The notes under the pieces were generated by a model. The model saw only the letters and a program-made list of their open reading frames with translations. It was not told the DNA's origin and ran no database searches. The position numbers and the translations under genes are program-made. This document shows, piece after piece, positions 9,851-40,781 of a stretch of DNA of 40,781 nucleotides (positions are counted from its first letter, which is position 1; every line of letters starts with the position of its first letter). Source of the DNA: a virus; the UHGV virus genome UHGV-0177491, one strand, 5' to 3'.

Positions 9851-10354
9851 ATGAGTAAGAGACGTCACGAGGTAGTAACTCGGGAGCGCCTTATGGAGGT
9901 TCTAGTTTACAATAAAGAAACAGGAATTTTCACCTGGAAAAAGAAATTAAGCGCCAGAGGCGCTGTTGGTAAAGCTGCTGGCACAATCACTCCTTGTGGG
10001 TATAACGCAATTAGTATTGATGGCGTAAGATATTTTGCACATAGACTTGCCTGGCTGTATGTATATGGCGAATGGCCAAAACAAGAGATTGACCACATTG
10101 ATAGAAACAGAAGAAATAACGCAATCTCAAACCTTAGAGATGTTAGCAGGGTCGTAAATGCGTTAAATGTCGGACCTCGAAATAGCAATACTGGAATCAA
10201 GGGGGTAACTTTCTGTCAAGCCAGAAATCAATGGCAAGCTCAGATACATCTCTCAGGTAAAAACATAACTCTTGGGAGATTCAACACCATTGATGAGGCA
10301 GCTATAGCTTATAAGGCAGCAAACATGGTTGCTGACCATCTGTTGGGGCTGTAA
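9851..10354 (+). CDS. HNH homing-type endonuclease with AP2-like DNA-binding domain
   Basis: HNH motif region [22 protein letters not shown]-terminal [43 protein letters not shown] resembles AP2 domains of phage HNH endonucleases. Divergent from the tailspike start, about 13 bp apart. Confidence 0.8.
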
Positions 10355-27840: not shown

Positions 27841-28359
27841 TCACTTTGGCAGTCCGGGGATCGATATTTGCGCCTGCTGCTCAAGCCTTTCGATTCTTGC
27901 TATGAGTTGCGGTTTTTTGATCCTGCCCCAGCGGTTCAGCAAGCGTCCTGACATACTGGCAACATCCTTTTCCTTCATGAACTCCAGCATTAACTCATTG
28001 TGCTCTCTTTGGTATGAGTGAGCCAACTCCATCAGCCTGTCACGCATCCAATTAAATGCTTTGATAAACGCCTCTTTGATGGCGGCAGCTTTTTTGCCGG
28101 TAAACGACATGATGATGTACATCGCGCCGTCTTTGGAAATTTCATATTCAACATACTGATTACCCTTGTGTTCATAGGTAACCCGCGAAAAGTTGCTGGT
28201 TAGAAATTCATCCGAACAGTCTAGCTTTTCGATTTTCTGAATGATGTGGTGATGCTGCTTGTCGAAGTAAGCTGCTACCTTGCGGGAGGTTGTGATCACG
28301 CGATTACCAGAAACAACCACCATGTCCCGGAAATCGAGATTAGCCAATTGATGATTCAT
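27841..28359 (-). CDS. rha: Rha-family phage regulatory protein
   Basis: N-terminal VITTSRKVAAYFDKQHHHIIQKIEKL motif typical of Rha; position after the lysis genes as in P22. ATG at 28359 (track begins at a GTG at 28395). Confidence 0.6.
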   Translation of the reverse strand: MNHQLANLDFRDMVVVSGNRVITTSRKVAAYFDKQHHHIIQKIEKLDCSDEFLTSNFSRVTYEHKGNQYVEYEISKDGAMYIIMSFTGKKAAAIKEAFIKAFNWMRDRLMELAHSYQREHNELMLEFMKEKDVASMSGRLLNRWGRIKKPQLIARIERLEQQAQISIPGLPK

Positions 28360-28559
28360 AGCGTCTTTACCTTTTAGAAAGTGAGCCTGTCTCACAGAAA
28401 AGCCGCCCGAGAGAGGTCGCCACCTATAACGGCATTTCTCAGGCTCGCTTACTGAAAGGCTCTCGTTAATATGCGCGTGAGATGCGCTGTGAAATTCAGA
28501 TGTAAAAAAAGCCCCGCATCGCGAGGCTCATTAAATGGACTTTGTGATTTGCAAAAAAA

Positions 28560-30579: not shown

Positions 30580-30741
30580 TTAAGCGATTCTTCTCAAGCG
30601 AATTACGATTCTTGCGACACCCCACCATTCAGCATCAGACAACATCTCTGATGGTTTAAATGCGTCTGGGAATTGCTGTGGAATGTATCTGGTGAATTTA
30701 GTCTCTGTCCTCACAGGTGCTTTCTTCTTTCGCTTGCTCAT
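30580..30741 (-). CDS. Hypothetical small basic protein (53 aa)
   Basis: ATG at 30741 forms an ATGA overlap with the stop of the upstream antirepressor-like gene. Not in the ORF track. Confidence 0.35.
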   Translation of the reverse strand: MSKRKKKAPVRTETKFTRYIPQQFPDAFKPSEMLSDAEWWGVARIVIRLRRIA

Positions 30742-31427
30742 ATCAACCCCTCATCAGTCAGTTTGCCGACAATCCACATCTCCCCTTCGGCGTAGAACAT
30801 CGCCTGAGAGTGTCCATTATTAGTCTCGCGCATGATGCCGTAGCCTTTGTCGATAAACCATTGCTGGAAGACGCGCCCACGCTTAACTGAACGATTGTAT
30901 ACCCCTAATTGCTCAAGCTGTTTATTCAGCCACACGGCGGATTGCCCGAACTTCTGCGCCACCTGCGACGCGTTATAAAGATTGTTGCGCTCAACGATGC
31001 GGTCGTAAACCTCGGCTTTAGGACTCATTTCCTTGTTCTCCAGTGCAAGGCGCTCTTTCTCTTCCTCTGCTACCACCAGCGCCTTGAGCGCCTCAAGATA
31101 AGTTTGGGGGACAGGAAATGCCGGTTTACTTTCTTGTTCTTCCAGCTCTTGCCAGCGATTAATTATTTTCATACGCAGAGCAGCGCTGTACCCAGCTACA
31201 AGGCAGAGAGATTCTTCCTTGTTCAACAAGTAGACTTTATCTTTGACGGCATGCCCTAAGTTATTAATTCTCTCGACAAATCCAATTTTGGATTGCTCAG
31301 AGATTCCTAACTCTGACAACATAACTCTTATATCTCTGCACACATGCCCATGCTGTTTACCTGTCAGTTCCGCAATCTCACGGCTGGACATGGTTTGCAC
31401 TTCTGCAGCGTTAATTAAACTGCTCAT
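30738..31427 (-). CDS. Antirepressor-like protein, paralog of 2541..3212
   Basis: N-terminal MSSREIAELTGKQHGHVCRDI motif; C-terminal about 95 aa nearly identical to the plus-strand paralog. ATG at 31427 with a purine-rich SD (track ORF extends to 31472). Confidence 0.7.
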   Translation of the reverse strand: MSSLINAAEVQTMSSREIAELTGKQHGHVCRDIRVMLSELGISEQSKIGFVERINNLGHAVKDKVYLLNKEESLCLVAGYSAALRMKIINRWQELEEQESKPAFPVPQTYLEALKALVVAEEEKERLALENKEMSPKAEVYDRIVERNNLYNASQVAQKFGQSAVWLNKQLEQLGVYNRSVKRGRVFQQWFIDKGYGIMRETNNGHSQAMFYAEGEMWIVGKLTDEGLI

Positions 31428-31505
31428 ACATTCCTCTCTCTTGTTGGTGTAACTGTATTTAACTTCCAACATTCATATCGTTCAAATCAGGTTCTTTATC
31501 GTCAC

Positions 31506-32135: not shown

Positions 32136-32422
32136 GACTTAATCTTCCCCTCCCTCAGCAGTATCGCCTGCGTCCTGATCACGCCTTCGAGGTGGTAAAG
32201 TCTGGCGTCTTTGTTGTCGAGATTATGGGTGCGTCGGTCGATCTCCGCGTGGCAGTCACTACAAGCCCATGCACCGATCAGGTCGTCAGGCTTCATTCCC
32301 GTTCCGCAAATTCCAGCCATCCGGTAATGTGCCAGAACTGTAGTTTCAGGATTACCATTGCATACGCCGTAAATACGTACCTGGCATTCTCTGCCGCGTG
32401 CTTCTTTGCGTAGGTTAGCCAT
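32132..32422 (-). CDS. DUF1364-family (YbcO-like) protein
   Basis: Cys/His-rich 96-aa protein immediately upstream of rusA, as in the DLP12 ybcO-rusA arrangement. Confidence 0.6.
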   Translation of the reverse strand: MANLRKEARGRECQVRIYGVCNGNPETTVLAHYRMAGICGTGMKPDDLIGAWACSDCHAEIDRRTHNLDNKDARLYHLEGVIRTQAILLREGKIKS

Positions 32423-33192
32423 TAAGCAGCCTCCCCTGTTACTTTCAGCATTCCGTTATCGAGCAGCTTTCTGGTCAGCCACTGTTGACCACGCCCGGTG
32501 ATTTTTGTGGTGAACGATATCTGTATTCCGTGATTTGTGTTGACCGCTGTTTCTTTCACTGTGAAATAGCCGCGCTCCATATATTCCTGCATTGGCACAT
32601 TGCGCCGGGAACCTGAAGCAATAAGGATTTTGTGATCACGCATCCACGCAAACAGTTTGTTTGGACCAGTACCGACAACCTTTGCAAAGTTTCCAATCAA
32701 AATTCCGCTGGCCTCGCCAACGCGATCGGCAAACTCAACTTTAGGTGCTGCGAGAGCAAGCTGCTGTTCCAACTTCACCTTCTGCTCATACTCATTAGCC
32801 CATGCTCTGGCAGCCTCTGCCGGGTTGGAGAAGTCAGGCAGTTGTAATTGCTGGCTCACTTTGTTGCGGAAATAGTTCCTCACCAACTCTCGCTGTACGC
32901 GCCACGCTGTCTCATCACGTAGTGTCTTTACCAGCATCAGATAGCCGGATTCTGTGAAAACCCTTAAGCCATTTGGTGAAATTTTCATCGACGGGTAGGC
33001 CGTCTGTTGCGTAAAATCAATAAGATACGTATCTTCTCCGTCTATAAAATATTTCGCGTTTCTCGCATAACCATCTTTGATAGTGGTTACTGGAACCCCG
33101 TGAATATCAGCAATCATTTGATACGTAACAACACGCTCACCATTAAACTCAATCGGCACGATTTCTGCGTTGGCAATAATTACGGCATTCAT
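32422..33192 (-). CDS. Antirepressor-like protein (ORF6N N-terminal domain plus Ant-like C-terminal region)
   Basis: N-terminal EFNGERVVTYQMIADIHGV...GLRVFTESGYLMLVK (ORF6N-like); central PDFSNPAEAARAWANEYEQK shared with the 2541..3212 protein. Confidence 0.65.
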   Translation of the reverse strand: MNAVIIANAEIVPIEFNGERVVTYQMIADIHGVPVTTIKDGYARNAKYFIDGEDTYLIDFTQQTAYPSMKISPNGLRVFTESGYLMLVKTLRDETAWRVQRELVRNYFRNKVSQQLQLPDFSNPAEAARAWANEYEQKVKLEQQLALAAPKVEFADRVGEASGILIGNFAKVVGTGPNKLFAWMRDHKILIASGSRRNVPMQEYMERGYFTVKETAVNTNHGIQISFTTKITGRGQQWLTRKLLDNGMLKVTGEAA

Positions 33193-33443
33193 GCAACACC
33201 TCCTTCAACGACAATACTGTCTCGCTTACCTTGTTCGCCTTCGAAGACGTAGAAATCACGCTTCCCGGTAATAACACCTAAATCATTGATTATGTTAGTG
33301 TGCTGCAATGCAGGAGGCTTGATAACGCCACGTTTCACCAATCTATCTATGGATACTTTTACATTGCTATGGCGGCTTTCTACCAGTTCGGCAATTTCGA
33401 TACTGGTCATCTTAACGGAAGAGAAACAAATTAAATTACTCAT
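33189..33443 (-). CDS. Small Rha-type N-terminal-domain protein
   Basis: MTSIEIAELVESRHSNVKVSI motif; ATGA-coupled to its neighbours. Confidence 0.45.
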   Translation of the reverse strand: MSNLICFSSVKMTSIEIAELVESRHSNVKVSIDRLVKRGVIKPPALQHTNIINDLGVITGKRDFYVFEGEQGKRDSIVVEGGVA

Positions 33444-35126: not shown

Positions 35127-35569
35127 GCAGCCCTCCCTTTTCGTTGTGACCATTCATACTCTCGCCTGGAGTCATCACTCCACCGCACGTTGCGCTCTGA
35201 GCCGAACCAGAACATGATTTCGATAAGCTCAGTCATGCTGACCTTTCGCATTTTGCTGGTACGCACGCCAAGCATGACAACGCCACCGTCGATACCAGGA
35301 ACGCTTCGTTGCTCCAGTTTTTTGGTCTTAAGCCACAGGGCAGTGAACAGATCTTTCCAGTCCTCCGGCGCAAGTCTCTTTCCATGCCAAAGCACCTGAC
35401 GTGATACGTCCTGCAATAACGCCCACATAAGTCGGTTTTGAGGATTGCTCCGCTTTGGTTCTTTAACGTGGACTTCGTGAGGTGACTTGTCGTCGATGGG
35501 AAGTGAGAGTATTGCGTCTATGGCGTTATTTCTGATTGCTTCGTTGCGAAGCATGTATATTTGCCTCAC
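35123..35569 (-). CDS. ninB: NinB-like recombination protein
   Basis: NPQNRLMWALLQDVSRQVLWHG...WSDDSRREYEW matches lambda NinB as recalled; AAGGAGG SD 7 nt before GTG at 35569. Confidence 0.9.
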   Translation of the reverse strand: MRQIYMLRNEAIRNNAIDAILSLPIDDKSPHEVHVKEPKRSNPQNRLMWALLQDVSRQVLWHGKRLAPEDWKDLFTALWLKTKKLEQRSVPGIDGGVVMLGVRTSKMRKVSMTELIEIMFWFGSERNVRWSDDSRREYEWSQRKGRAA

Positions 35570-35700
35570 CCTTAAACCTCCTTAATCGCATTCTGACGAG
35601 ATTTTGCATCTAGACACCCGATTACATACCTGCTGTGTGTTTATCTCGCTACAGGCTCATCTAGGCGCCTTAAAATCGATTTTTGTTGTTTTGGTTGTGT

Positions 35701-35761: not shown

Positions 35762-38668
35762 TTAATACTCCGTCACGTTTTCCTGTCGCCACGCCTCGTC
35801 ATATTCCGATTTCGGCATATTGGCGATGTAGCTATATGGCGATCCTGATTCAAGTTGCAGGAACTGGTGCGATTGCTCGTCAAGGAACAACGAGACACCA
35901 CCTTCCCAACCTTCGCCGTTACGTTGTTTTTCAAGCATCAAAACAGATGCCGGAGATGCCAGTAGCTGTTCGTCCTTCTCTGTCATCTTTTCACCACTCT
36001 GAACTCTCTGTAACGCTCTCTCGCGAGCCTTGTTACGCCAGATGATGAAAAGGTTGTCTGTCAGGTCTGTTATCGCGCCAGAGCCTTTTACGTCCATTTT
36101 CCCGGTTGGTTTTTCTTCGCTGTCTCCTTTTCGCGAGTGAGTAACGAGAATGACGTGGGAGTTTGTTTTGTTTTTGAAGTCGCAAATCGAGTCAACAAAC
36201 GCCTTCTGCCCGTTATAGTCATCGTCACCTATGCCGCATTTCATCAGGCTGTCGATGATGAATAACTGGATGCCGTATCGGCGGCGAGCGTAGTCGAATA
36301 TTTCGATCAGCCTGTCGGCTTTCGCCGTTCCGGTCAGGCCAAACACCCAAAGTCTTTCGTCATAAAATTTAAATGCAGAGTCAATTTCCAGCACTGGCGG
36401 CATCTTGCAGCACGTCGCCTGACGGGTAAGGCGCTTAAGGAGAATACCAGGCTTCAGCTCAAGTGACGCGATGCACGTCTTCACACCCTGACGCATTGCC
36501 TCAAGTGCCATATGCCCGACAACCTCGGTGTTATGCGTCGCCACATATCCCCTGGTTACATACAGGTGGCGAGGGTGATCGACCATAATACACAAGCATT
36601 CTGCATTGCCTATTTTTTCAACATTCCTGACGAATACCCCACAGCCCTCGAATCGATGCGCAGTTAATCTGCCATTGAGTCGTGGTGAACGGATGGCATC
36701 CCTGATTTCTCTTGTCAGTCTGATTCTTGCCTCGTATGAATCCATCCCATGCCGCTTATCGCCCTTGTATGTGTATGTCACGCCAGTTTTAACTCGCGTC
36801 CGGCATGACCCGCCGAGTGAGTTAACCAGTTGAACAACCCCATTGAGCAGTTCTTCACTTGCTGAGGAAAAAACAAGCGTTCCATCCTTCTCGACATACC
36901 CATCCGTTTCAAGCAGACCACACAGCATGCCTATACGCGTTGATTTATTTGCAGAAAAAAACACACGAGGGATGAATTTGTTTTTTGCTGTGCACCCCAT
37001 TAGTCCATAACCTCGCAGGGTCTCCATGAGTGGATTTACCTGACCACGCGCCGTTGATATCAGCCAGTCCTTACCATCTCCAGAGAAGTTGTAATCAGGC
37101 AGTTCAGCCTTCATACGCTCGATCATGTATGGCTCGACGTTTGAAAACTTCACGCTCCCATTGCTAAGACTACCATCCCCGAGAAGGGAGCCGATAACCC
37201 ATGCTAATGGCTCTGAGTGGTCGCCAAAGTCACCAGTTATTTCAGGAATCCTAACGCCATTTTTGTGCCTCTTCGTTTCACTCAACCGTTTCAGCTCGAA
37301 GGTGTCTATCACGCGGCGCTTCTCGCCTTTCGTGAATCCACGACTAGTGACCTCCCATAGGTGATCGCCTGCGCAATCAACATAACGACCATCTTCAAAT
37401 GTGACTCGGTAAACATCTCTAACACCCTGCGGGAATATCCCGGTGACAGTTGACGGATTGCCGTCAACTGACGCCACCTGATCGCCAATTTTTACATCCC
37501 CGTGAGTAGTCCATTCACCATTAGCGAGCAGAATTGGTTCATCAAGTGGACAGGCTTTTCCGTGACCGTTCACACCATTGACCAGCGTCAACTCGGCCTC
37601 ACGGAACTGGAATTTATCTGCCAGAGATTCCCACGGTGGATTAAACAGATACTGCTGCTTGCCGTAGAAAGCGTTGATAGTGTCCTGGTAAAACTCTCGC
37701 GCGCTGTAGAGTTCTTCAGGATCGAAGTAGGATGCCGTGCCGATGTACTGCCAGATTTCATCCTCGGTAACACCGTTCATCAGGCATTCGTTGATGTCTT
37801 TGTACGGCAGAGTAACAAGACGGCAACGATGTTCACCGAGTCGGCTTGCGATTTCCCTTGCGGCTTCACGACCAACATCATCAACGTCCATCGAGATGAA
37901 TATTTCCTCAAACCTGTCGAGGTTGTGATACTCAAACTCAATCCACTGTTGCTTAGCGCCTTTCCCGCCACCAAACGGCACGGATAACGCCGAGATGCCG
38001 TATTGCGCATAGCTCATACAATCAATTTCGCCTTCGCAAAGTACAACCGCCCTCACGCCAGCGTCCAGAGCCTGCCATCCGAACAGACAAGGTTCGCAAT
38101 CACCTTCTGCCATAATGACTTTCTTCCCGTCCGGGCGCTCAGTGCTGATTCGCTTGACCTGCAACAACTCACCATCGCGTTTGTACGGAAGCACCAGTGC
38201 ATCAAGTTCTCGTTCTCCATCCCACACCTTGCCGCTGACAACCTCGTAGCGCTTTACGACTTCTGGCGATATGCCACGCGATTGCAGGTACTCAAGATGG
38301 GATTCTGTTCTGGTAACGTAGCGGGCGATTTTCTTGCGGTCAGGTCTGGAGAATTTCTTCTCACGTTTGGCATCGAAATGGTGATCGTCATCCTTGATTC
38401 CGAGAAATGCTTTCGCTTCCTGCATAGCCTGATGCAGGTTAATTCCACGACATGCCATCCACAAATCAAGCATGTCACCGCCGTCTCCCTCAGCGAAATC
38501 AGCCCATTTTTTCTTGCCGCTAAGGTTGACCTTAAGGCTGTTTCCCTTGTCACCGTTGACGTTACCGGCAACCCACTCATGCCCCTCTTTCTTGCCGTTT
38601 GGCAACAGGTGCGGAGCCACCCTGTCAACCTGCGCCCAAAGCAGGTCGCTGAGTTCACTTGGCCTCAT
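35762..38668 (-). CDS. Primase-helicase (Toprim primase domain plus DnaB/SF4-like helicase domain) carrying an intein
   Basis: Toprim motif VVLCEGEIDCMSY; helicase motifs GVNGHGK (Walker A), LFIIDSL, VTHSRK, KGSGAITDLTDNLFIIWR. A 341-aa insertion interrupts the Walker A. Confidence 0.85.
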   Translation of the reverse strand: MRPSELSDLLWAQVDRVAPHLLPNGKKEGHEWVAGNVNGDKGNSLKVNLSGKKKWADFAEGDGGDMLDLWMACRGINLHQAMQEAKAFLGIKDDDHHFDAKREKKFSRPDRKKIARYVTRTESHLEYLQSRGISPEVVKRYEVVSGKVWDGERELDALVLPYKRDGELLQVKRISTERPDGKKVIMAEGDCEPCLFGWQALDAGVRAVVLCEGEIDCMSYAQYGISALSVPFGGGKGAKQQWIEFEYHNLDRFEEIFISMDVDDVGREAAREIASRLGEHRCRLVTLPYKDINECLMNGVTEDEIWQYIGTASYFDPEELYSAREFYQDTINAFYGKQQYLFNPPWESLADKFQFREAELTLVNGVNGHGKACPLDEPILLANGEWTTHGDVKIGDQVASVDGNPSTVTGIFPQGVRDVYRVTFEDGRYVDCAGDHLWEVTSRGFTKGEKRRVIDTFELKRLSETKRHKNGVRIPEITGDFGDHSEPLAWVIGSLLGDGSLSNGSVKFSNVEPYMIERMKAELPDYNFSGDGKDWLISTARGQVNPLMETLRGYGLMGCTAKNKFIPRVFFSANKSTRIGMLCGLLETDGYVEKDGTLVFSSASEELLNGVVQLVNSLGGSCRTRVKTGVTYTYKGDKRHGMDSYEARIRLTREIRDAIRSPRLNGRLTAHRFEGCGVFVRNVEKIGNAECLCIMVDHPRHLYVTRGYVATHNTEVVGHMALEAMRQGVKTCIASLELKPGILLKRLTRQATCCKMPPVLEIDSAFKFYDERLWVFGLTGTAKADRLIEIFDYARRRYGIQLFIIDSLMKCGIGDDDYNGQKAFVDSICDFKNKTNSHVILVTHSRKGDSEEKPTGKMDVKGSGAITDLTDNLFIIWRNKARERALQRVQSGEKMTEKDEQLLASPASVLMLEKQRNGEGWEGGVSLFLDEQSHQFLQLESGSPYSYIANMPKSEYDEAWRQENVTEY
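36530..37552 (-). mobile_element. Intein with LAGLIDADG homing-endonuclease domain inserted in the helicase P-loop
   Basis: Insertion begins with Cys after GVNGHGKA, contains LAWVIGSLLGDGS and RIGMLCGLLETDGYV (two LAGLIDADG-type motifs), ends VATHN followed by Thr. Residues about 373-713 of the host protein. Confidence 0.7.
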
Positions 38669-38775
38669 GATTCCCTCAGATTGAGATTTTTAAACCAGAA
38701 ATCGACAAACGAAATACTTAACCAGCCGTGGTTATAACCAGCGACCAGTAGCGATTTGATTTTTGATTTCATGGT

Positions 38776-39546
38776 TCACCTGTCGAAAAACACGTAGCCA
38801 GTTTTCGATACGGTGATTGCGGATGATGGTTTGGATTGTGGTTGAATAGTTTCTGGCTTCTCGTCGTTCCAGCGTTGACCGTTCAGGTAGCTCGATGGTA
38901 ACAACCTGTCGAATCCGAACTGCTTACCACTCCTGCATGCGATGTCTTCTGCCAGCATCGTGGCAAACTCGCTTGCCGTACCCCTTGTAGTTTTACGCCA
39001 TTCCCTGAACTGTGTTCTGAATGCTGAAGCTGCGTTTTTCTTCCCGGCTTTCCGCATGCCTGCACACCAGAATATTTCCTCGAATGCCTTGTCGGTTTCT
39101 TCGTGACGGTCAGGAGTTTTTTCACACTCTGTTCGGACATGTTCGAACATAATGTTTTTAGGTTCATTGACTGGTTCAAAAGAGTGACTGGTTCTGGGTG
39201 CAGCTCCTGCACCACCCCCTAGTGAATCTCCTGCACCAGGGTGGTGAATCTCCTGCACTACCCCTAGTGAATCTCCTGCACCCCCAAGCCGAAGAATATA
39301 GATATTACTTGAGTTGCCTTTTTCACCTTTTCGGGTGACTTTTTTTAGCAAGCCAGCCTCACAAAGAGCCTCAATATGGTTAATCACGGAGCGTTTGCTA
39401 ATCTCGCACTGGTCAGCGATATGCTGATATGAAGGCCAGCATTCGCCATTGTCATTGGCGTTATCGGCAAGTTTAAGCAGAACCAGTTTTCTGAGCGGGT
39501 TTCCAACTTTGGCTCCCATTGCCTTCACCATCAGAATCATACTCAT
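38776..39546 (-). CDS. Iteron-binding replication initiator (lambda O-like)
   Basis: N-terminal wHTH-like region (KLVLLKLADNANDNGECWPSYQHIADQCEISKRSV); iteron repeats lie inside the coding sequence; position after cro and the cII remnant. Confidence 0.75.
   Translation of the reverse strand: MSMILMVKAMGAKVGNPLRKLVLLKLADNANDNGECWPSYQHIADQCEISKRSVINHIEALCEAGLLKKVTRKGEKGNSSNIYILRLGGAGDSLGVVQEIHHPGAGDSLGGGAGAAPRTSHSFEPVNEPKNIMFEHVRTECEKTPDRHEETDKAFEEIFWCAGMRKAGKKNAASAFRTQFREWRKTTRGTASEFATMLAEDIACRSGKQFGFDRLLPSSYLNGQRWNDEKPETIQPQSKPSSAITVSKTGYVFFDR
39204..39290. repeat. Intragenic iterons (about four degenerate 22-bp repeats) forming the replication origin
   Basis: Units CTCCTGCACC...GTGAATC repeated with variation inside the initiator gene; related to the perfect repeats at the window ends. 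Confidence 0.7.
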
Positions 39547-39580
39547 TTTTTCACCTCCAATTGGTTGTGTTTGTTAATGC

Positions 39581-39835
39581 TTATTTAAGCATCAGGCGAG
39601 CAAACTTCGGCTGGTTACTTCCTGGCTCCAAATTCAAAACCCCAGTCTTTTCCAGTGCTAAAATGTGACCAATTACTGTCGATCTGCTAATATCGCACTG
39701 ATAAGCGAGATCTTGATATGAAAACCAGCATTCGCCATTGTCATTGGCGTTATCGGCAAGTTTAAGCAGAATCAGTTTTCTTCGCGGGTTCCCAACCTTA
39801 GTTCTCATTGCTTTCTCAATCAGAATCATACTCAT
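39581..39835 (-). CDS. Paralog of the initiator N-terminal domain (84 aa)
   Basis: MSMILIEKAMRTKVGNPRRKLILLKLADNANDNGECWFSYQDLAYQCDISRSTV is about 70 percent identical to the first about 60 aa of the downstream initiator. Confidence 0.55.
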   Translation of the reverse strand: MSMILIEKAMRTKVGNPRRKLILLKLADNANDNGECWFSYQDLAYQCDISRSTVIGHILALEKTGVLNLEPGSNQPKFARLMLK

Positions 39836-39862
39836 TGTGTCTTCTCCTGTAATTTGTGCTTT

Positions 39863-39988
39863 CTATTCATGACAGCCAATCATCTTTGCCAGACCGCGCT
39901 GGGTAAGCGTTGACAGGTTGATGAGTAAATCAGTTTCTGCGCGATCAATTTCTCGCTGTGTTGGCTTGCTGTAACTTGCTTGTGTCAT
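39863..39988 (-). pseudogene. Truncated cII-like ORF (41 codons)
   Basis: MTQASYSKPTQREIDRAETDLLINLSTLTQRGLAKMIGCHE resembles the N-terminal part of lambda CII in pattern and position but stops before a complete HTH. Weak call. Confidence 0.3.
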
Positions 39989-40072
39989 TTGTTAATTCAC
40001 CAATAGTGAATAGTTAGTTGAAAGGTATGCGTGGAAACGCATATAGCCTTAGTTGGTCAGATATCTTGGAAC

Positions 40073-40117
40073 TCGCTTTTCAGCGACGTAGGACGAATGT
40101 CCGTTGTTACAAAGAGC
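40073..40117 (-). promoter_or_regulatory. nutR-like site (boxA plus boxB)
   Basis: Minus-strand GCTCTTTGTAACAA (boxA-like) and TCGCT-GAAAA-AGCGA hairpin (boxB-like, same loop as nutL) just downstream of the cro-like gene. Confidence 0.55.
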
Positions 40118-40128
40118 AGTCCCGCTTA

Positions 40129-40344
40129 TTAAGCGGCTTTGTGTTCCGGCGGGAACACGTCATCAAGACTTACATTTGCGCCTAACTTGTTCAGGTAAGC
40201 AACGAGAGCACGGCATGTTTTAAGATCTGGCATGCGACGACCACTTTCCCAATGACCGACAGCCGACTGTGTGCATCCAACTGCCTTAGCAAGTATTGTT
40301 TGACTGATGCTCACTGACTTTCGATATTTCTTAAGGTTGTTCAT
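40129..40344 (-). CDS. Cro-like HTH (XRE-family) regulator
   Basis: 71 aa with HTH QTILAKAVGCTQSAVGHWESG; first gene of the minus-strand early operon. Confidence 0.65.
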   Translation of the reverse strand: MNNLKKYRKSVSISQTILAKAVGCTQSAVGHWESGRRMPDLKTCRALVAYLNKLGANVSLDDVFPPEHKAA

Positions 40345-40373
40345 ATTTCCTTCCCAACATTGGTAACCACGCT

Positions 40374-40405
40374 ATTATAGTACATCTAGTGCGTTTTTAA
40401 TGCAA
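40374..40405 (-). promoter_or_regulatory. PR-like promoter for the cro-like gene
   Basis: Perfect TATAAT on the minus strand (plus 40374-40379) about 25 nt upstream of the start; the -35 is imperfect. Confidence 0.45.
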
Positions 40406-40576
40406 GCAAAAATACCACACTCCAAATCCTGGTGAACCAACCCCAAACCTCCTGAATCGCATTCTGACGCAATATTTACGCCCACACGTACATTTTAATG
40501 TCTGACAGTTGTTTATCTCTCTACAGCGCTTCCTATGGCGTTTAAACGCCATTGACGTAACTAATGGTTGCCGAGA

Positions 40577-40737
40577 CCGGCTTTCCGCATGCCTGCACAC
40601 CAGAATATTTCCTCGAATGCCTTGTCGGTTTCTTCGTGACGGTCAGGAGTTTTTTCACACTCTGTTCGGACATGTTCGAACATAATGTTTTTAGGTTCAT
40701 TGACTGGTTCAAAAGAGTGACTGGTTCTGGGTGCAGC
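40577..40737 (-). pseudogene. Duplicated internal fragment of the replication initiator gene
   Basis: About 160 bp near-identical to 39044-39203; both overlapping track ORFs (40542..40748, 40561..40770) reproduce initiator-gene translations. Confidence 0.7.
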
Positions 40738-40781
40738 TCCTGCACCACCCTGGTGAATCTCCTGCACCACCCTGGTGAATC
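40738..40781. repeat. Iteron array: two perfect 22-bp units continuing to the window end
   Basis: TCCTGCACCACCCTGGTGAATC twice, identical to units at 1-66; joined end to start the array would hold at least five perfect units. Confidence 0.85.

What the first reader, a model, noticed from the sequence alone, without database searches (positions are those of the whole stretch)
39581..39988. Tandem duplication of the initiator N-terminal domain adjacent to a truncated cII
An 84-aa ORF about 70 percent identical to the initiator N-terminal DNA-binding region lies directly upstream of the full initiator gene and directly downstream of a 41-codon cII-like remnant. The duplication may have removed the 3' part of cII. 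A free-standing iteron-binding domain could act as a replication or copy-number modulator.
Basis: partly seen in the sequence, partly recalled or inferred. Interest (0 to 1): 0.5.

Follow-up and report, generated by a model that had tools for sequence, protein, structure and literature searches.

The report
Orphaned initiator DNA-binding domain remnant
A small gene in front of this phage's replication-initiator gene is a leftover copy of an initiator's DNA-binding domain, of a different origin-recognition type, sitting beside a broken lysogeny gene (cII); it is a recombination scar in a P22-like phage that has lost its lysogeny genes, and most likely not a new regulator.

Summary
On the minus strand, a 41-codon cII stub (39988-39863) is followed by an 84-codon ORF (39835-39581). 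That ORF is 70% identical over 67 residues to the N-terminal winged-helix of the next gene, a 256-aa O-like initiator (39546-38776). The same arrangement occurs on 11 independent metagenome contigs, so it is not an assembly artefact.

It is not a simple tandem duplication. Codons 2-49 resemble the resident initiator. Codons 51-70 (recognition helix) and the ribosome-binding site resemble a different allele, carried by the closest relative phiKp_30 and by Stx phages such as Min27. That allele uses different iterons (GGGGCAGGAGCTGCCC, against GTGCAGGAGATTCAC here), and none occur in this genome.

The ORF and its leader (311 nt) replace the cII 3' part and a small ORF (331 nt) found in normal relatives. 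The cII stop codon is created by the junction. Lineage-specific changes are 19 non-synonymous to 4 synonymous, which looks neutral. No orthologue or donor allele was found in any collection searched.

The phage also lacks cI and integrase. Best reading: an orphaned, drifting domain left by a replication-module exchange in an ex-temperate lytic phage. A trans-acting role is not excluded. Interest is low to moderate.

The parts
39863..39988 (-). cII remnant: codons 1-41 of a ~99-codon cII, plus a TAG stop created by the rearrangement junction.
   Evidence: Pfam Phage_CII positions 1-37/91, E=1.8e-11. 34/41 identical to residues 1-41 of prophage cII in L027. About 90-92% nt identity to the cII 5' part and cro-cII spacer of Min27 and L026-L028, ending at 39861.
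39862..39866 (-). Junction J1. Identity to cII ends after ...TGTCATGAAT (39865). The next bases are unrelated to cII and begin the leader of the 84-codon ORF.
   Evidence: In-register comparison with L027 cII. BLAST alignments to cII end at 39861.
39836..39861 (-). Leader of the 84-codon ORF. It has an SD, GGAG, 8 nt before the ATG. This GGAGAAG form and spacing match the Min27/phiKp_30/L027 initiator leader.
   Evidence: BLAST homology to initiator leaders extends to 39847.
39581..39835 (-). orf84: a free-standing, complete winged-helix (HTH_36) domain homologous to the N-terminal origin-binding domain of O-like initiators.
   Evidence: HTH_36 E=1.7e-10. PHROGs replication-initiation families, first ~70 positions only. 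AF2 pLDDT 85, topology H-H-b-H-H-b-b.
39689..39835 (-). orf84 codons 1-49: the portion resembling the resident initiator. About 83-95% nt identity in codons 1-37, falling to 78% in codons 38-49; 14 of 18 decisive informative sites are resident-type. It is probably homogenised by gene conversion.
   Evidence: Variant protein P0002, from other contigs, has residues 42, 43, 45 and 48 changed to exactly the resident initiator's residues.
39626..39688 (-). orf84 codons 50-70 (recognition helix and first wing strand). They are derived from a Min27/phiKp_30-type ('M-type') allele: 78% nt identity to M-type against 49% to the resident initiator.
   Evidence: 21 of 25 decisive informative sites are M-type, Fisher p=1e-4.
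39581..39625 (-). orf84 tail (codons 71-84 plus stop). It contains junction J2, which cannot be placed more exactly than about 39590-39630. With an in-frame 12-nt gap it aligns weakly to the M-type wing. It aligns about equally well to the generic initiator leader.
   Evidence: AF2 predicts residues 77-81 as the second wing strand.
39547..39580 (-). Leader of the resident initiator gene, with a strong SD (GGAGGTG).
38776..39546 (-). Resident full-length initiator ('O_W', 256 aa): N-terminal HTH_36 winged helix, in-gene iterons and a C-terminal domain.
   Evidence: 90% nt identity over its whole length to the prophage initiator genes in L026-L028.
39198..39281 (-). Origin iterons inside the resident initiator gene: 3 x GTGCAGGAGATTCAC plus 1 x GTGCAGGAGCTGCAC ('W-type').
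   Evidence: The same iteron type co-occurs with the same recognition-helix motif in 8 IMG/VR loci.
40577..40781 (-). Context, first half of a second origin copy. It holds 174 nt that are 100% identical to 39044-39217, followed by W-type iterons. It lies between PR and PL, where cI should be.
   Evidence: It is contiguous across the window ends in contigs L003-L005.
1..78 (-). Context, second half of the second origin copy: the remaining W-type iterons. The array totals 5 W-type plus 1 hybrid iteron, and one iteron spans the window end/start.
   Evidence: Iteron number varies among contigs.

Best explanation
orf84 is the orphaned N-terminal origin-binding (winged-helix, HTH_36) domain of a different initiator allele. 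It was left behind when the replication region of a P22-like (Lederbergvirus) phage was rebuilt by recombination.

In this initiator family the N-terminal domain and the iterons just downstream, inside the same gene, co-vary as an origin-specificity cassette. The recognition-helix part and ribosome-binding site of orf84 are of the 'M-type'. That type is carried by phiKp_30 and by Stx/Eru5 phages such as Min27, and its iterons are GGGGCAGGAGCTGCCC. The working initiator next door is 'W-type', with iterons GTGCAGGAGATTCAC.

Inferred history:
1. An illegitimate junction just after the winged helix (J2) placed a complete W-type initiator, with its own leader and iterons, behind the old N-domain.
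2. A second junction (J1) removed cII codons 42-99 and the small ORF that normally precedes the initiator.
3. The 5' two-thirds of the remnant has since been partly homogenised with the resident gene by gene conversion.

The remnant is probably still transcribed from PR and translated. However, it has no cognate iterons and no helicase-recruiting C-terminal domain, and it accumulates replacements at a neutral-like rate. It is therefore most likely a drifting, functionless or nearly functionless relic.

The broken cII fits the rest of the genome, which has no cI and no integrase. This is an ex-temperate lineage that now appears obligately lytic.

What is shown: the anatomy, the chimerism, the iteron/helix co-variation, the absence of M-type iterons, the substitution pattern, and the loss of the lysogeny genes. 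What is inferred: the order and mechanism of events, expression, and lack of function.
For: - Chimerism. Informative sites switch from resident-type (14:4, codons 2-49) to M-type (4:21, codons 51-70), p=1e-4. Identity in codons 50-70 is 78% to M-type and 49% to the resident gene. The SD and spacing are M-type.
- Specificity cassette. phiKp_30 and Min27 have the helix SRSTVKSHIRALE with GGGGCAGGAGCTGCCC iterons. The window initiator and 8 IMG/VR loci have the helix motif S(K/R)RS(V/A)(M/I)(N/I)HI with GTGCAGGAGATTCAC iterons. orf84 has SRSTVIGHILALE.
- No M-type iteron occurs in the 40.8-kb genome. The only near matches, at 2 mismatches, are the hybrid GTGCAGGAGCTGCAC repeats that end each W-type array.
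- Replacement geometry. Normal relatives have cI-cro-cII(99 aa)-orf47-O. Window homology to them breaks at 39865/39864 and resumes at 39549.
- Relaxed constraint. Lineage-specific changes are 19 N: 4 S for orf84, against 4:10 and 6:15 for two full-length W-type alleles, Fisher p=1.2e-4. Replacements fall at 8 positions that are invariant in the other five aligned N-domains, from E. coli to Vibrio phages, and at 7 of those 8 across the ten alleles. Two basic residues of the M-type recognition helix are lost (K55I, R59L).
- No orthologues or donor allele were found. The searches covered 1.8 billion protein representatives, where the best hit is 71% identical and nearly all hits are 200-300-aa initiators. 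They also covered 5,426 E. coli genomes, with a best of 81.9% nt, and the GTDB genomes, IMG/VR and JGI metagenomes.
- Ongoing gene conversion between the copies is shown by variant P0002.
- Lysogeny-module decay. No cI or integrase by tblastn, and none by Pfam among the ORFs scanned. The sister phage phiKp_30 lost cI and the cII 5' part by different deletions.
Against: - The ORF is intact and keeps a good SD. AF2 predicts a complete, confidently folded winged helix that ends 3 residues after the last strand. That is what a functional stand-alone domain would look like.
- However, about 39% of neutral histories with 23 substitutions would also keep the ORF open.
- By a stricter criterion (states unique among 10 alleles), the changes are 15 N: 0 S. 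Taken at face value this hints at positive selection, but the criterion is biased by saturation at synonymous sites.
- The M-like part is still 22% diverged from any sampled M-type allele, so the true donor is unsampled.
- J2 cannot be placed exactly, and the order of events is inferred.
- The lineage is nearly clonal, with no SNPs in orf84 among 10 contigs, so population data cannot test selection.
- Expression was not measured.
Confidence: 0.6

Rival explanations
1. Plain in-situ tandem duplication. About 289 nt, comprising the leader and N-domain of the resident initiator, were duplicated by one unequal crossover. The upstream copy then simply diverged.
For: Direct repeat with 289-nt spacing that includes the leader. 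The 5' part of orf84 is most similar to the resident gene, at 83-95% in codons 1-37.
Against: - Codons 50-70 are only 49% identical to the resident gene but 78% identical to a different, widespread allele. Random divergence would not converge on that allele.
- The SD is of the other allele's type.
- The resident gene itself is 90% identical along its full length to the prophage genes in L026-L028, so it has not diverged fast.
- There are two novel junctions and no net gain in length.
- A variant remains possible but needs more events: duplication in an M-type ancestor, followed by replacement of the downstream copy's specificity cassette.
Confidence: 0.1
2. Functional free-standing origin-binding protein. 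Orf84 is made from the PR transcript and binds iterons without recruiting the helicase/primase. It would act in one of two ways: damping the phage's own initiation (two W-type origin copies are present), or blocking M-type origins of competing phages and resident prophages.
For: - Intact ORF, native SD, and no terminator between cro and the initiator on the coding strand.
- A complete predicted winged helix.
- M-type initiator genes matching at about 81% nt were found in 126 of 5,426 complete E. coli genomes, so targets would exist.
- The phage carries four Rha/ANT antirepressor-like genes that could induce resident prophages.
- The strict unique-state count is 15 N: 0 S.
- Precedent: extra lambda ori iterons in trans silence lambda replication (PMC3349717). 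From memory, the isolated N-terminal fragment of lambda O binds ori.
Against: - Substitution pattern is neutral-like against the nearest alleles, 19:4.
- Two basic residues are lost in the recognition helix, and family-invariant positions are replaced.
- No cognate iterons in the genome.
- No conserved orthologues anywhere.
- Known only from one nearly clonal lineage.
Confidence: 0.2
3. Assembly chimera. Reads from two related phages with different initiator alleles were joined at the conserved core of the N-domain.
For: The window's ends lie in an iteron array. Several short contigs break at the 174-nt exact repeat, so repeats do disturb assembly in this region.
Against: The identical cII'-orf84-initiator arrangement was recovered in 11 contigs from about 10 samples with MEGAHIT-style, SPAdes-style and other contig names. 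Coverage reaches about 300x, and identity is 99.2-100%. Both junctions lie in unique sequence, not in the repeat core.
Confidence: 0.02

Closest known systems
Lambdoid O-like replication initiators of the HTH_36 type (PF13730; PHROGs 'replication initiation O-like'). An example is the HTH protein of the Eru5 replication unit of Stx phages (Stx2a_F403, Min27, 24B), paired with a primase/helicase.
   Same: The orf84 fold and sequence match the N-terminal winged helix of this family. Its recognition-helix part is closest to the Eru5/Min27 allele. PMC8951638 lists Stx2a_F403 as the Eru5 representative and states that the Eru5 HTH protein exhibits the HTH_36 motif.
   Different: orf84 stops after the winged helix. 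It has no in-gene iterons, no linker and no C-terminal domain, and it does not show the family's purifying selection.
Phage lambda cII (PF05269)
   Same: The first 41 residues are clearly cII, in the canonical position after cro.
   Different: Only 41 of about 99 codons remain. The stop codon is made by a rearrangement junction. From general knowledge of lambda cII, the rest of the HTH and the oligomerisation region are missing, so it cannot be a working activator.
Gene remnants at module boundaries of mosaic lambdoid/P22-like phages
   Same: Sharp homology breaks at or near gene or domain borders. A different allele in the nearest relative. Leftover partial genes.
   Different: Here the leftover is a precise, still-open, foldable domain lying in tandem with its functional homologue. 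It is also partly homogenised with that homologue by gene conversion.
Virulent derivatives of temperate phages (cI-deleted or lysogeny-defective), for example the sister phage Klebsiella phage phiKp_30 (LC768498.2)
   Same: No cI, no integrase and a damaged cII. The P22-like structural and early genes are otherwise intact.
   Different: phiKp_30 lost cI and cII by different deletions and has a single M-type initiator. The window phage carries a second origin copy where cI was.
Trans-acting inhibition by parts of the lambda replication region (the 'inhibition phenotype' from oop plus ori iterons; PMC3349717)
   Same: Extra copies of origin parts, iterons or an origin-binding domain, could in principle interfere with initiation.
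   Different: That system needs oop RNA and iterons on a plasmid. Nothing comparable was tested here, and orf84 lacks cognate iterons in this genome.

Membership tests
O-like HTH_36 replication initiator | N-terminal winged-helix domain matching PF13730 / PHROG replication-initiation families | tested here: met
   HTH_36 E=1.7e-10. phrog_4617 E=1.7e-26, positions 1-71 of 223. AF2 winged helix, pLDDT 85.
O-like HTH_36 replication initiator | Cognate iteron array immediately downstream, inside the same gene | tested here: not met
   orf84 ends at 39581 and is followed by the leader of the next gene. No M-type iterons occur anywhere in the window. W-type iterons lie only in the resident gene and in the second origin copy.
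O-like HTH_36 replication initiator | C-terminal domain of about 150 aa, presumed to recruit the helicase/primase | tested here: not met
   84 aa in total. Homologues are 200-300 aa and match only over their first ~70 residues.
O-like HTH_36 replication initiator | Purifying selection on the N-domain | tested here: not met
   Lineage-specific changes are 19 N: 4 S, against 4:10 and 6:15 in full-length alleles, p=1.2e-4.
Phage cII transcriptional activator | Full-length protein of about 91-99 aa matching PF05269 end to end | tested here: not met
   Only profile positions 1-37 of 91 are present. 41 of 99 codons remain compared with L027. The stop codon is created at junction J1.
Simple tandem duplication | The two copies are each other's closest relatives along their whole length, with a single novel junction | tested here: not met
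   The 3' third is closer to the Min27/phiKp_30 allele (78% against 49%). There are two novel junctions and no net length gain.
Conserved stand-alone small HTH_36 regulator | Orthologues of similar length in other, diverged genomes | tested here: not met
   Only one 90%-identity cluster, with 2 members. Short hits among the representatives look like frameshifted or truncated initiators. Scans for the protein and for its recognition helix found only the same lineage.
Iteron-binding replication modulator (dominant-negative initiator fragment) | Binds origin iterons and alters initiation | not testable with these tools
   This needs EMSA or footprinting and genetics. The sequence shows only a foldable winged helix with an altered recognition helix.

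The most novel reading that the evidence does not exclude
Orf84 is an expressed, trans-acting 'origin blocker'. It would be a stand-alone initiator DNA-binding domain kept by a lytic ex-temperate phage. It would occupy the iterons of M-type (Eru5-like) prophages or co-infecting phages and stop them replicating. Alternatively, together with the extra iteron array that replaced cI, it would tune the phage's own initiation.
Probability: 0.08. Interest if true: 0.6.

Novelty: new member of a known kind. Interest (0 to 1): 0.25.

Why it matters
Mostly as a well-resolved example rather than a discovery.

- It shows at nucleotide resolution how origin specificity is swapped as a unit in lambdoid/P22-like phages. 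The unit is the initiator N-domain together with its in-gene iterons.
- It shows that such a swap can leave a foldable orphan domain, which then undergoes gene conversion with its functional neighbour.
- It documents a temperate-type phage lineage recovered from about ten metagenome samples that has shed cI, integrase and most of cII. This matters for annotation, because such phages are easily mis-scored as temperate, and for judging phage-therapy candidates.

If the orphan domain did act in trans on origins, it would be a simple, testable inter-phage competition device. The present evidence does not favour that.

Tried and rejected
- Looked for a donor allele or orthologues of orf84. Sources searched: the INPHARED phages by DNA and by tblastn, complete E. 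coli genomes, the 5.8-billion-protein word-index search, and HMMER against 1.8 billion representatives. Also searched: peptide-pattern scans of GTDB genomes and IMG/VR, and a degenerate-DNA scan for its recognition helix in JGI metagenomes, GTDB genomes and IMG/VR. Nothing was closer than about 81% nt or 71% aa, apart from the same lineage.
- Tried to fetch the contigs carrying variant P0002, to map the gene-conversion tract.
- Population-genetic test of selection. The 10 contigs carry no SNPs in cII' or orf84, so the test is uninformative.
- Rfam scan of 38000-40781 at E<=1, looking for an oop-like or other RNA. No hits.
- Promoter/terminator scan. Nothing above the shuffled background, and no terminator on the coding strand between cro and the initiator.
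- PADLOC scan. Only marginal winged-helix noise.
- Tried to place junction J2 exactly. The orf84 tail aligns about equally weakly to the M-type wing and to the generic initiator leader, so this stays unresolved.
- Considered that orf84 and the second origin copy might be the two halves of one former gene. Rejected, because the second origin is W-type and 100% identical over 174 nt to the resident gene.
- The other 256-aa/84-aa ORF pair, at 32422-33443, is a coincidence of lengths. The 256-aa protein there is ORF6N/ANT.
- A MAFFT alignment of orf84 with full-length homologues scattered its tail across distant columns. It was not used for structure prediction.
Full report
**1. What is there**

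All genes of this region are on the minus strand. In transcription order they are:
- a cro-like HTH gene, 40344-40129 (71 aa; HTH_3);
- a 41-codon ORF, 39988-39863;
- an 84-codon ORF, 39835-39581 ('orf84');
- a 256-aa initiator, 39546-38776 ('O_W');
- a 968-aa Toprim/AAA primase-helicase, 38668-35762, which carries Hint and LAGLIDADG domains.

The 41-aa product matches Pfam Phage_CII positions 1-37 of 91 (E=1.8e-11). It is 34/41 identical to the start of a 99-aa prophage cII.

orf84 matches HTH_36 (E=1.7e-10). It is 47/67 identical to the N-terminus of O_W (E=3e-31). The repeat finder reports a 200-nt direct repeat, 80% identical with 289-nt spacing, that includes 26 nt upstream of each ATG.

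**2. It is not an artefact**

The exact 84-aa protein is encoded on 11 metagenome contigs from about ten samples, and always in the order cro / 84 aa / 256 aa / 968 aa. These contigs are 99.2-100% identical to the window, and the differences lie mainly in iteron copy number. Three of them (L003-L005) run continuously across the window's end-to-start junction. The window is therefore a circularly permuted whole genome, cut inside an iteron array.

**3. What normal relatives look like**

Three sets of relatives have the canonical layout cI-cro-cII(about 99 aa)-small ORF-initiator-primase/helicase:
- Escherichia phage vB_EcoP-720R6;
- Min27;
- three E. coli prophage contigs, L026-L028.

Against L027, the window is 92% identical from the cro-cII spacer to cII codon 41 (window 40120-39861). 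It is 90% identical again from 3 nt before the initiator ATG through the whole initiator (39549-38600). In between, 311 nt of the window (orf84 and its leader) stand in place of 331 nt of L027 (the cII 3' part and orf47).

Identity to cII ends at 39865/39864, and the TAG stop of the stub is created by the junction itself (J1). So cII is broken rather than naturally short, and orf84 is not a conserved unrelated gene.

**4. orf84 is a chimera, not a copy of its neighbour**

In a protein alignment orf84 is 57-62% identical to every family member tested, including Vibrio phage initiators. It is not specially close to its neighbour.

At sites where O_W and the Min27/phiKp_30 allele ('M-type') differ, orf84 switches type:
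- nt 5-146 (codons 2-49): 14 sites follow O_W and 4 follow M-type;
- nt 151-209 (codons 51-70): 4 sites follow O_W and 21 follow M-type.

The switch is significant (Fisher p=1e-4). Codons 50-70 are 78% identical to M-type and 49% identical to O_W. The ribosome-binding site, GGAGAAG placed 8 nt before the ATG, is also of the M-type/L027 form.

A variant of orf84 found on other contigs (P0002) differs only at residues 42, 43, 45 and 48. Each is changed to exactly the O_W residue. That is the signature of gene conversion between the tandem copies. It explains why the 5' two-thirds look like the neighbour.

**5. The two alleles have different origin specificities**

In this family the iterons lie inside the initiator gene, just after the winged helix.
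- phiKp_30 and Min27 (M-type helix SRSTVKSHIRALE) have GGGGCAGGAGCTGCCC repeats.
- O_W (helix SKRSVINHIEALC) has 3 x GTGCAGGAGATTCAC plus one GTGCAGGAGCTGCAC.
- Eight IMG/VR loci retrieved by the W-type iteron pattern all encode the helix motif S(K/R)RS(V/A)(M/I)(N/I)HI.

orf84 carries SRSTVIGHILALE. This is M-like, but two basic residues are replaced. No M-type iteron exists anywhere in the window. The only near matches, at 2 mismatches, are the hybrid repeats that end each W-type array. orf84 is thus an origin-binding domain without an origin.

**6. Is it a complete domain?**

AlphaFold2, run on a two-sequence alignment, gives mean pLDDT 85 and pTM 0.75. The topology is H-H-b-H-H-b-b, a complete winged helix that ends three residues before the stop. 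Only the wing loop is of lower confidence. Foldseek against the PDB returns generic winged-helix regulators and the N-domains of staphylococcal plasmid initiators. PHROGs matches cover only the first ~70 positions of replication-initiation families that are 196-298 positions long.

The downstream junction (J2) lies somewhere in 39590-39630. The orf84 tail aligns about equally weakly to the M-type wing, with an in-frame 12-nt gap, and to the generic initiator leader.

**7. Is it under selection?**

Against its four nearest alleles, orf84 has 19 non-synonymous and 4 synonymous lineage-specific changes. Random mutation would give 22-28% synonymous, so the count fits neutrality (P of 4 or fewer = 0.19-0.41). 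The full-length W-type alleles show 4:10 and 6:15, and the contrast is significant (Fisher p=1.2e-4).

In the six-sequence alignment, eight replacements fall at positions invariant in the other five N-domains, from E. coli to Vibrio phages: M6I, L18R, V22I, P38F, H42D, D45Y, E48D and L66V. Across the ten alleles, seven of the eight stay invariant; D45 does not (L017 has E).

Pairwise Nei-Gojobori dN/dS values:

| Comparison | Codons | dN/dS |
|---|---|---|
| orf84 vs M-type | 50-70 | 1.25 |
| orf84 vs O_W | 1-49 | 0.39 |
| O_W vs M-type | 1-49 | 0.14 |

An open 84-codon frame is not surprising under neutrality, because about 39% of histories with 23 changes avoid a stop.

One caveat remains. 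If only states unique among ten alleles are counted, the tally is 15 N: 0 S. This could hint at adaptive change, but the criterion is biased because synonymous sites are saturated among the comparison alleles.

**8. No orthologue or donor was found**

- Phage records: best 81% nt and 69% aa.
- 5,426 complete E. coli genomes: best 81.9% nt.
- HMMER against 1.84 billion representatives: best 71% identity. Nearly all hits are 200-300-aa initiators matched over residues 1-70, and the few short hits have junk tails typical of frameshifts.
- Pattern scans of GTDB genomes, IMG/VR and JGI metagenomes, for the protein or for its recognition helix, found only the same lineage.

**9. Genomic context: an ex-temperate, lytic P22-like phage**

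The closest sequenced genome is Klebsiella phage phiKp_30, a Lederbergvirus from sewage, with 74% coverage at 95% identity.

- The window encodes N, a cIII-like peptide and a Kil-like peptide, so parts of the early-left operon remain. It also has a Rad52-type recombinase, SSB, a P22-type tailspike and structural genes.
- It has no integrase, and it has no cI of the three types tested. No ORF is large enough to be an unaccounted integrase.
- Between PL (about 215-250, upstream of the N gene at 365-709) and PR (about 40360-40400) there is no cI. In its place is a second origin copy. This copy has five W-type iterons plus one hybrid, followed by 174 nt that are 100% identical to 39044-39217. A ~125-nt repeated intergenic element follows it.
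- phiKp_30 has only about 166 nt between its PR- and PL-homologous segments, a 20-codon cI stub, and only the last ~20 codons of cII. It also has a single M-type initiator.

Related genomes have therefore lost cI and damaged cII by different deletions. The cII stub here fits decay of an unused lysogeny module.

**10. Most likely history and mechanism**

An ancestor carried an M-like initiator. Recombination with a W-type replication module produced two junctions:
- an illegitimate junction just after the winged helix (J2), so that a complete W-type gene with its own leader, N-domain and iterons follows the old N-domain;
- a junction (J1) that removed cII codons 42-99 and the small upstream ORF.

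Whether these were one complex event or two events cannot be told. The conserved core, which is 100% identical over about 50 nt, then allowed gene conversion of the remnant's 5' part.

No terminator-like site lies on the coding strand between cro and the initiator, and the SD is intact. orf84 is therefore probably co-transcribed from PR and translated. This is inference. With no cognate iterons, no C-terminal domain and neutral-like evolution, the best-supported reading is a drifting relic.

**11. Rivals**

- *Plain in-situ duplication plus divergence.* It cannot explain the M-type 3' third or SD, nor the two junctions (confidence about 0.1).
- *A functional stand-alone origin-binding protein.* It would be a self-damper or a blocker of M-type origins in competitors. 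It remains possible because the fold and the expression signals are intact, and M-type initiator genes are present in a minority of E. coli genomes (126 of 5,426). The Hayes et al. 'inhibition phenotype' shows that parts of a replication region can act in trans (PMC3349717). However, nothing in the sequence positively supports this (about 0.2).
- *Assembly chimera.* Excluded in practice by the independent contigs (about 0.02).

**12. Comparison with known systems, and novelty**

The initiator family is the HTH_36 O-like type. PMC8951638 lists Stx2a_F403 as the representative of the Stx-phage replication type 'Eru5', and reports the HTH_36 motif in the Eru5 HTH protein. orf84 meets only the first defining feature of that family, the N-terminal winged helix. 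It fails the others: in-gene iterons, a C-terminal domain and purifying selection. It should therefore be called a remnant of such a gene, not a member.

The stub is a cII fragment, not a cII. The overall phenomenon is ordinary for lambdoid phages: a partial gene left at a mosaic joint, in a virulent derivative of a temperate phage. This instance is unusually clean and adds gene conversion between the relic and its functional neighbour.

Rating: new member of a known kind; interest 0.25.

Noticed in passing
window 40577-40781 and 1-78 (minus strand; the feature spans the window end/start): A second copy of the replication origin lies between PL and PR, exactly where cI should be. It has 5 W-type iterons plus 1 hybrid iteron, then 174 nt that are 100% identical to 39044-39217 inside the initiator gene. 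Iteron number and spacer sequence vary among contigs, and some spacers are converted to the form found in the resident gene. Its function is unknown; possibilities are an initiator sink, a second origin or a scar.
   Followed up: partly
window 40438-40576; also 35567-35681; L001 (phiKp_30) 32971-33095: A ~125-nt repeated intergenic element, 70-76% identical between copies. It has conserved blocks CTGTAGCGAGATAAAC and CGTCAGAATGCGATTCAGGAGG and ends in an SD-like motif. It precedes ninB in the window and the primase/helicase gene in phiKp_30, and it flanks the second origin copy. It may be a module-boundary or leader sequence.
   Followed up: partly
window 35762-38668 (minus strand): The 968-aa primase/helicase carries an intein-like insert (Hom_end_hint at residues 379-424, LAGLIDADG_3 at 579-631) between the Toprim and AAA parts. 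A homologue in a related contig, L024, is 626 aa and shows no LAGLIDADG or Hint hit. phiKp_30 has the same 968-aa form.
   Followed up: no
whole window; L001 (phiKp_30) 539-605 and 978-1144: The window has no integrase and no cI, although cIII-like, Kil-like and N genes remain. The sister phage phiKp_30 also lacks cI, keeping a 20-codon stub, and retains only the last ~20 codons of cII. The lysogeny module was therefore lost through different deletions in related lytic Lederbergviruses.
   Followed up: partly
window 2541-3212 (+), 27841-28395 (-), 30738-31472 (-), 32422-33192 (-): Four Rha/ANT/ORF6N antirepressor-like genes sit in one 40.8-kb genome that has no repressor of its own.
   Followed up: no
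window 9851-10354 (+): An HNH_3 plus AP2 homing-endonuclease-like gene lies next to the tailspike gene. A similar HNH_3/AP2 gene sits beside the primase in the related contig L024.
   Followed up: no
window 40388, 40393 (PR region) and 40265-40266 (cro): These are the only recurrent SNPs in the 38600-700 stretch compared, apart from one at 38678 in the initiator-primase spacer that is shared by L004 and L006. Two lie in the putative PR promoter and a 2-nt change lies in cro, and they are shared by L004, L006, L009 and L010.
   Followed up: no
window 39323-39338 (+ strand, antisense to the initiator gene): A terminator-like hairpin with a T-run (TCACCTTTTCGGGTGA CTTTTTTTAG) lies antisense to the wing-coding part of the initiator. 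It may mark an oop-like antisense transcript. There is no Rfam hit.
   Followed up: no
protein P0002 (2 other contigs; not retrievable): A variant of orf84 has residues 42, 43, 45 and 48 identical to the resident initiator. This is direct evidence of gene conversion between the tandem homologues.
   Followed up: partly
PHROGs hit of window 38776-39546: The C-terminal 170 residues of the initiator form their own PHROG of 'unknown function' (phrog_33384, E=1.4e-107). A likely reason is that initiator genes of this family are often split at the iterons in deposited annotations, as in the phiKp_30 record.
   Followed up: no
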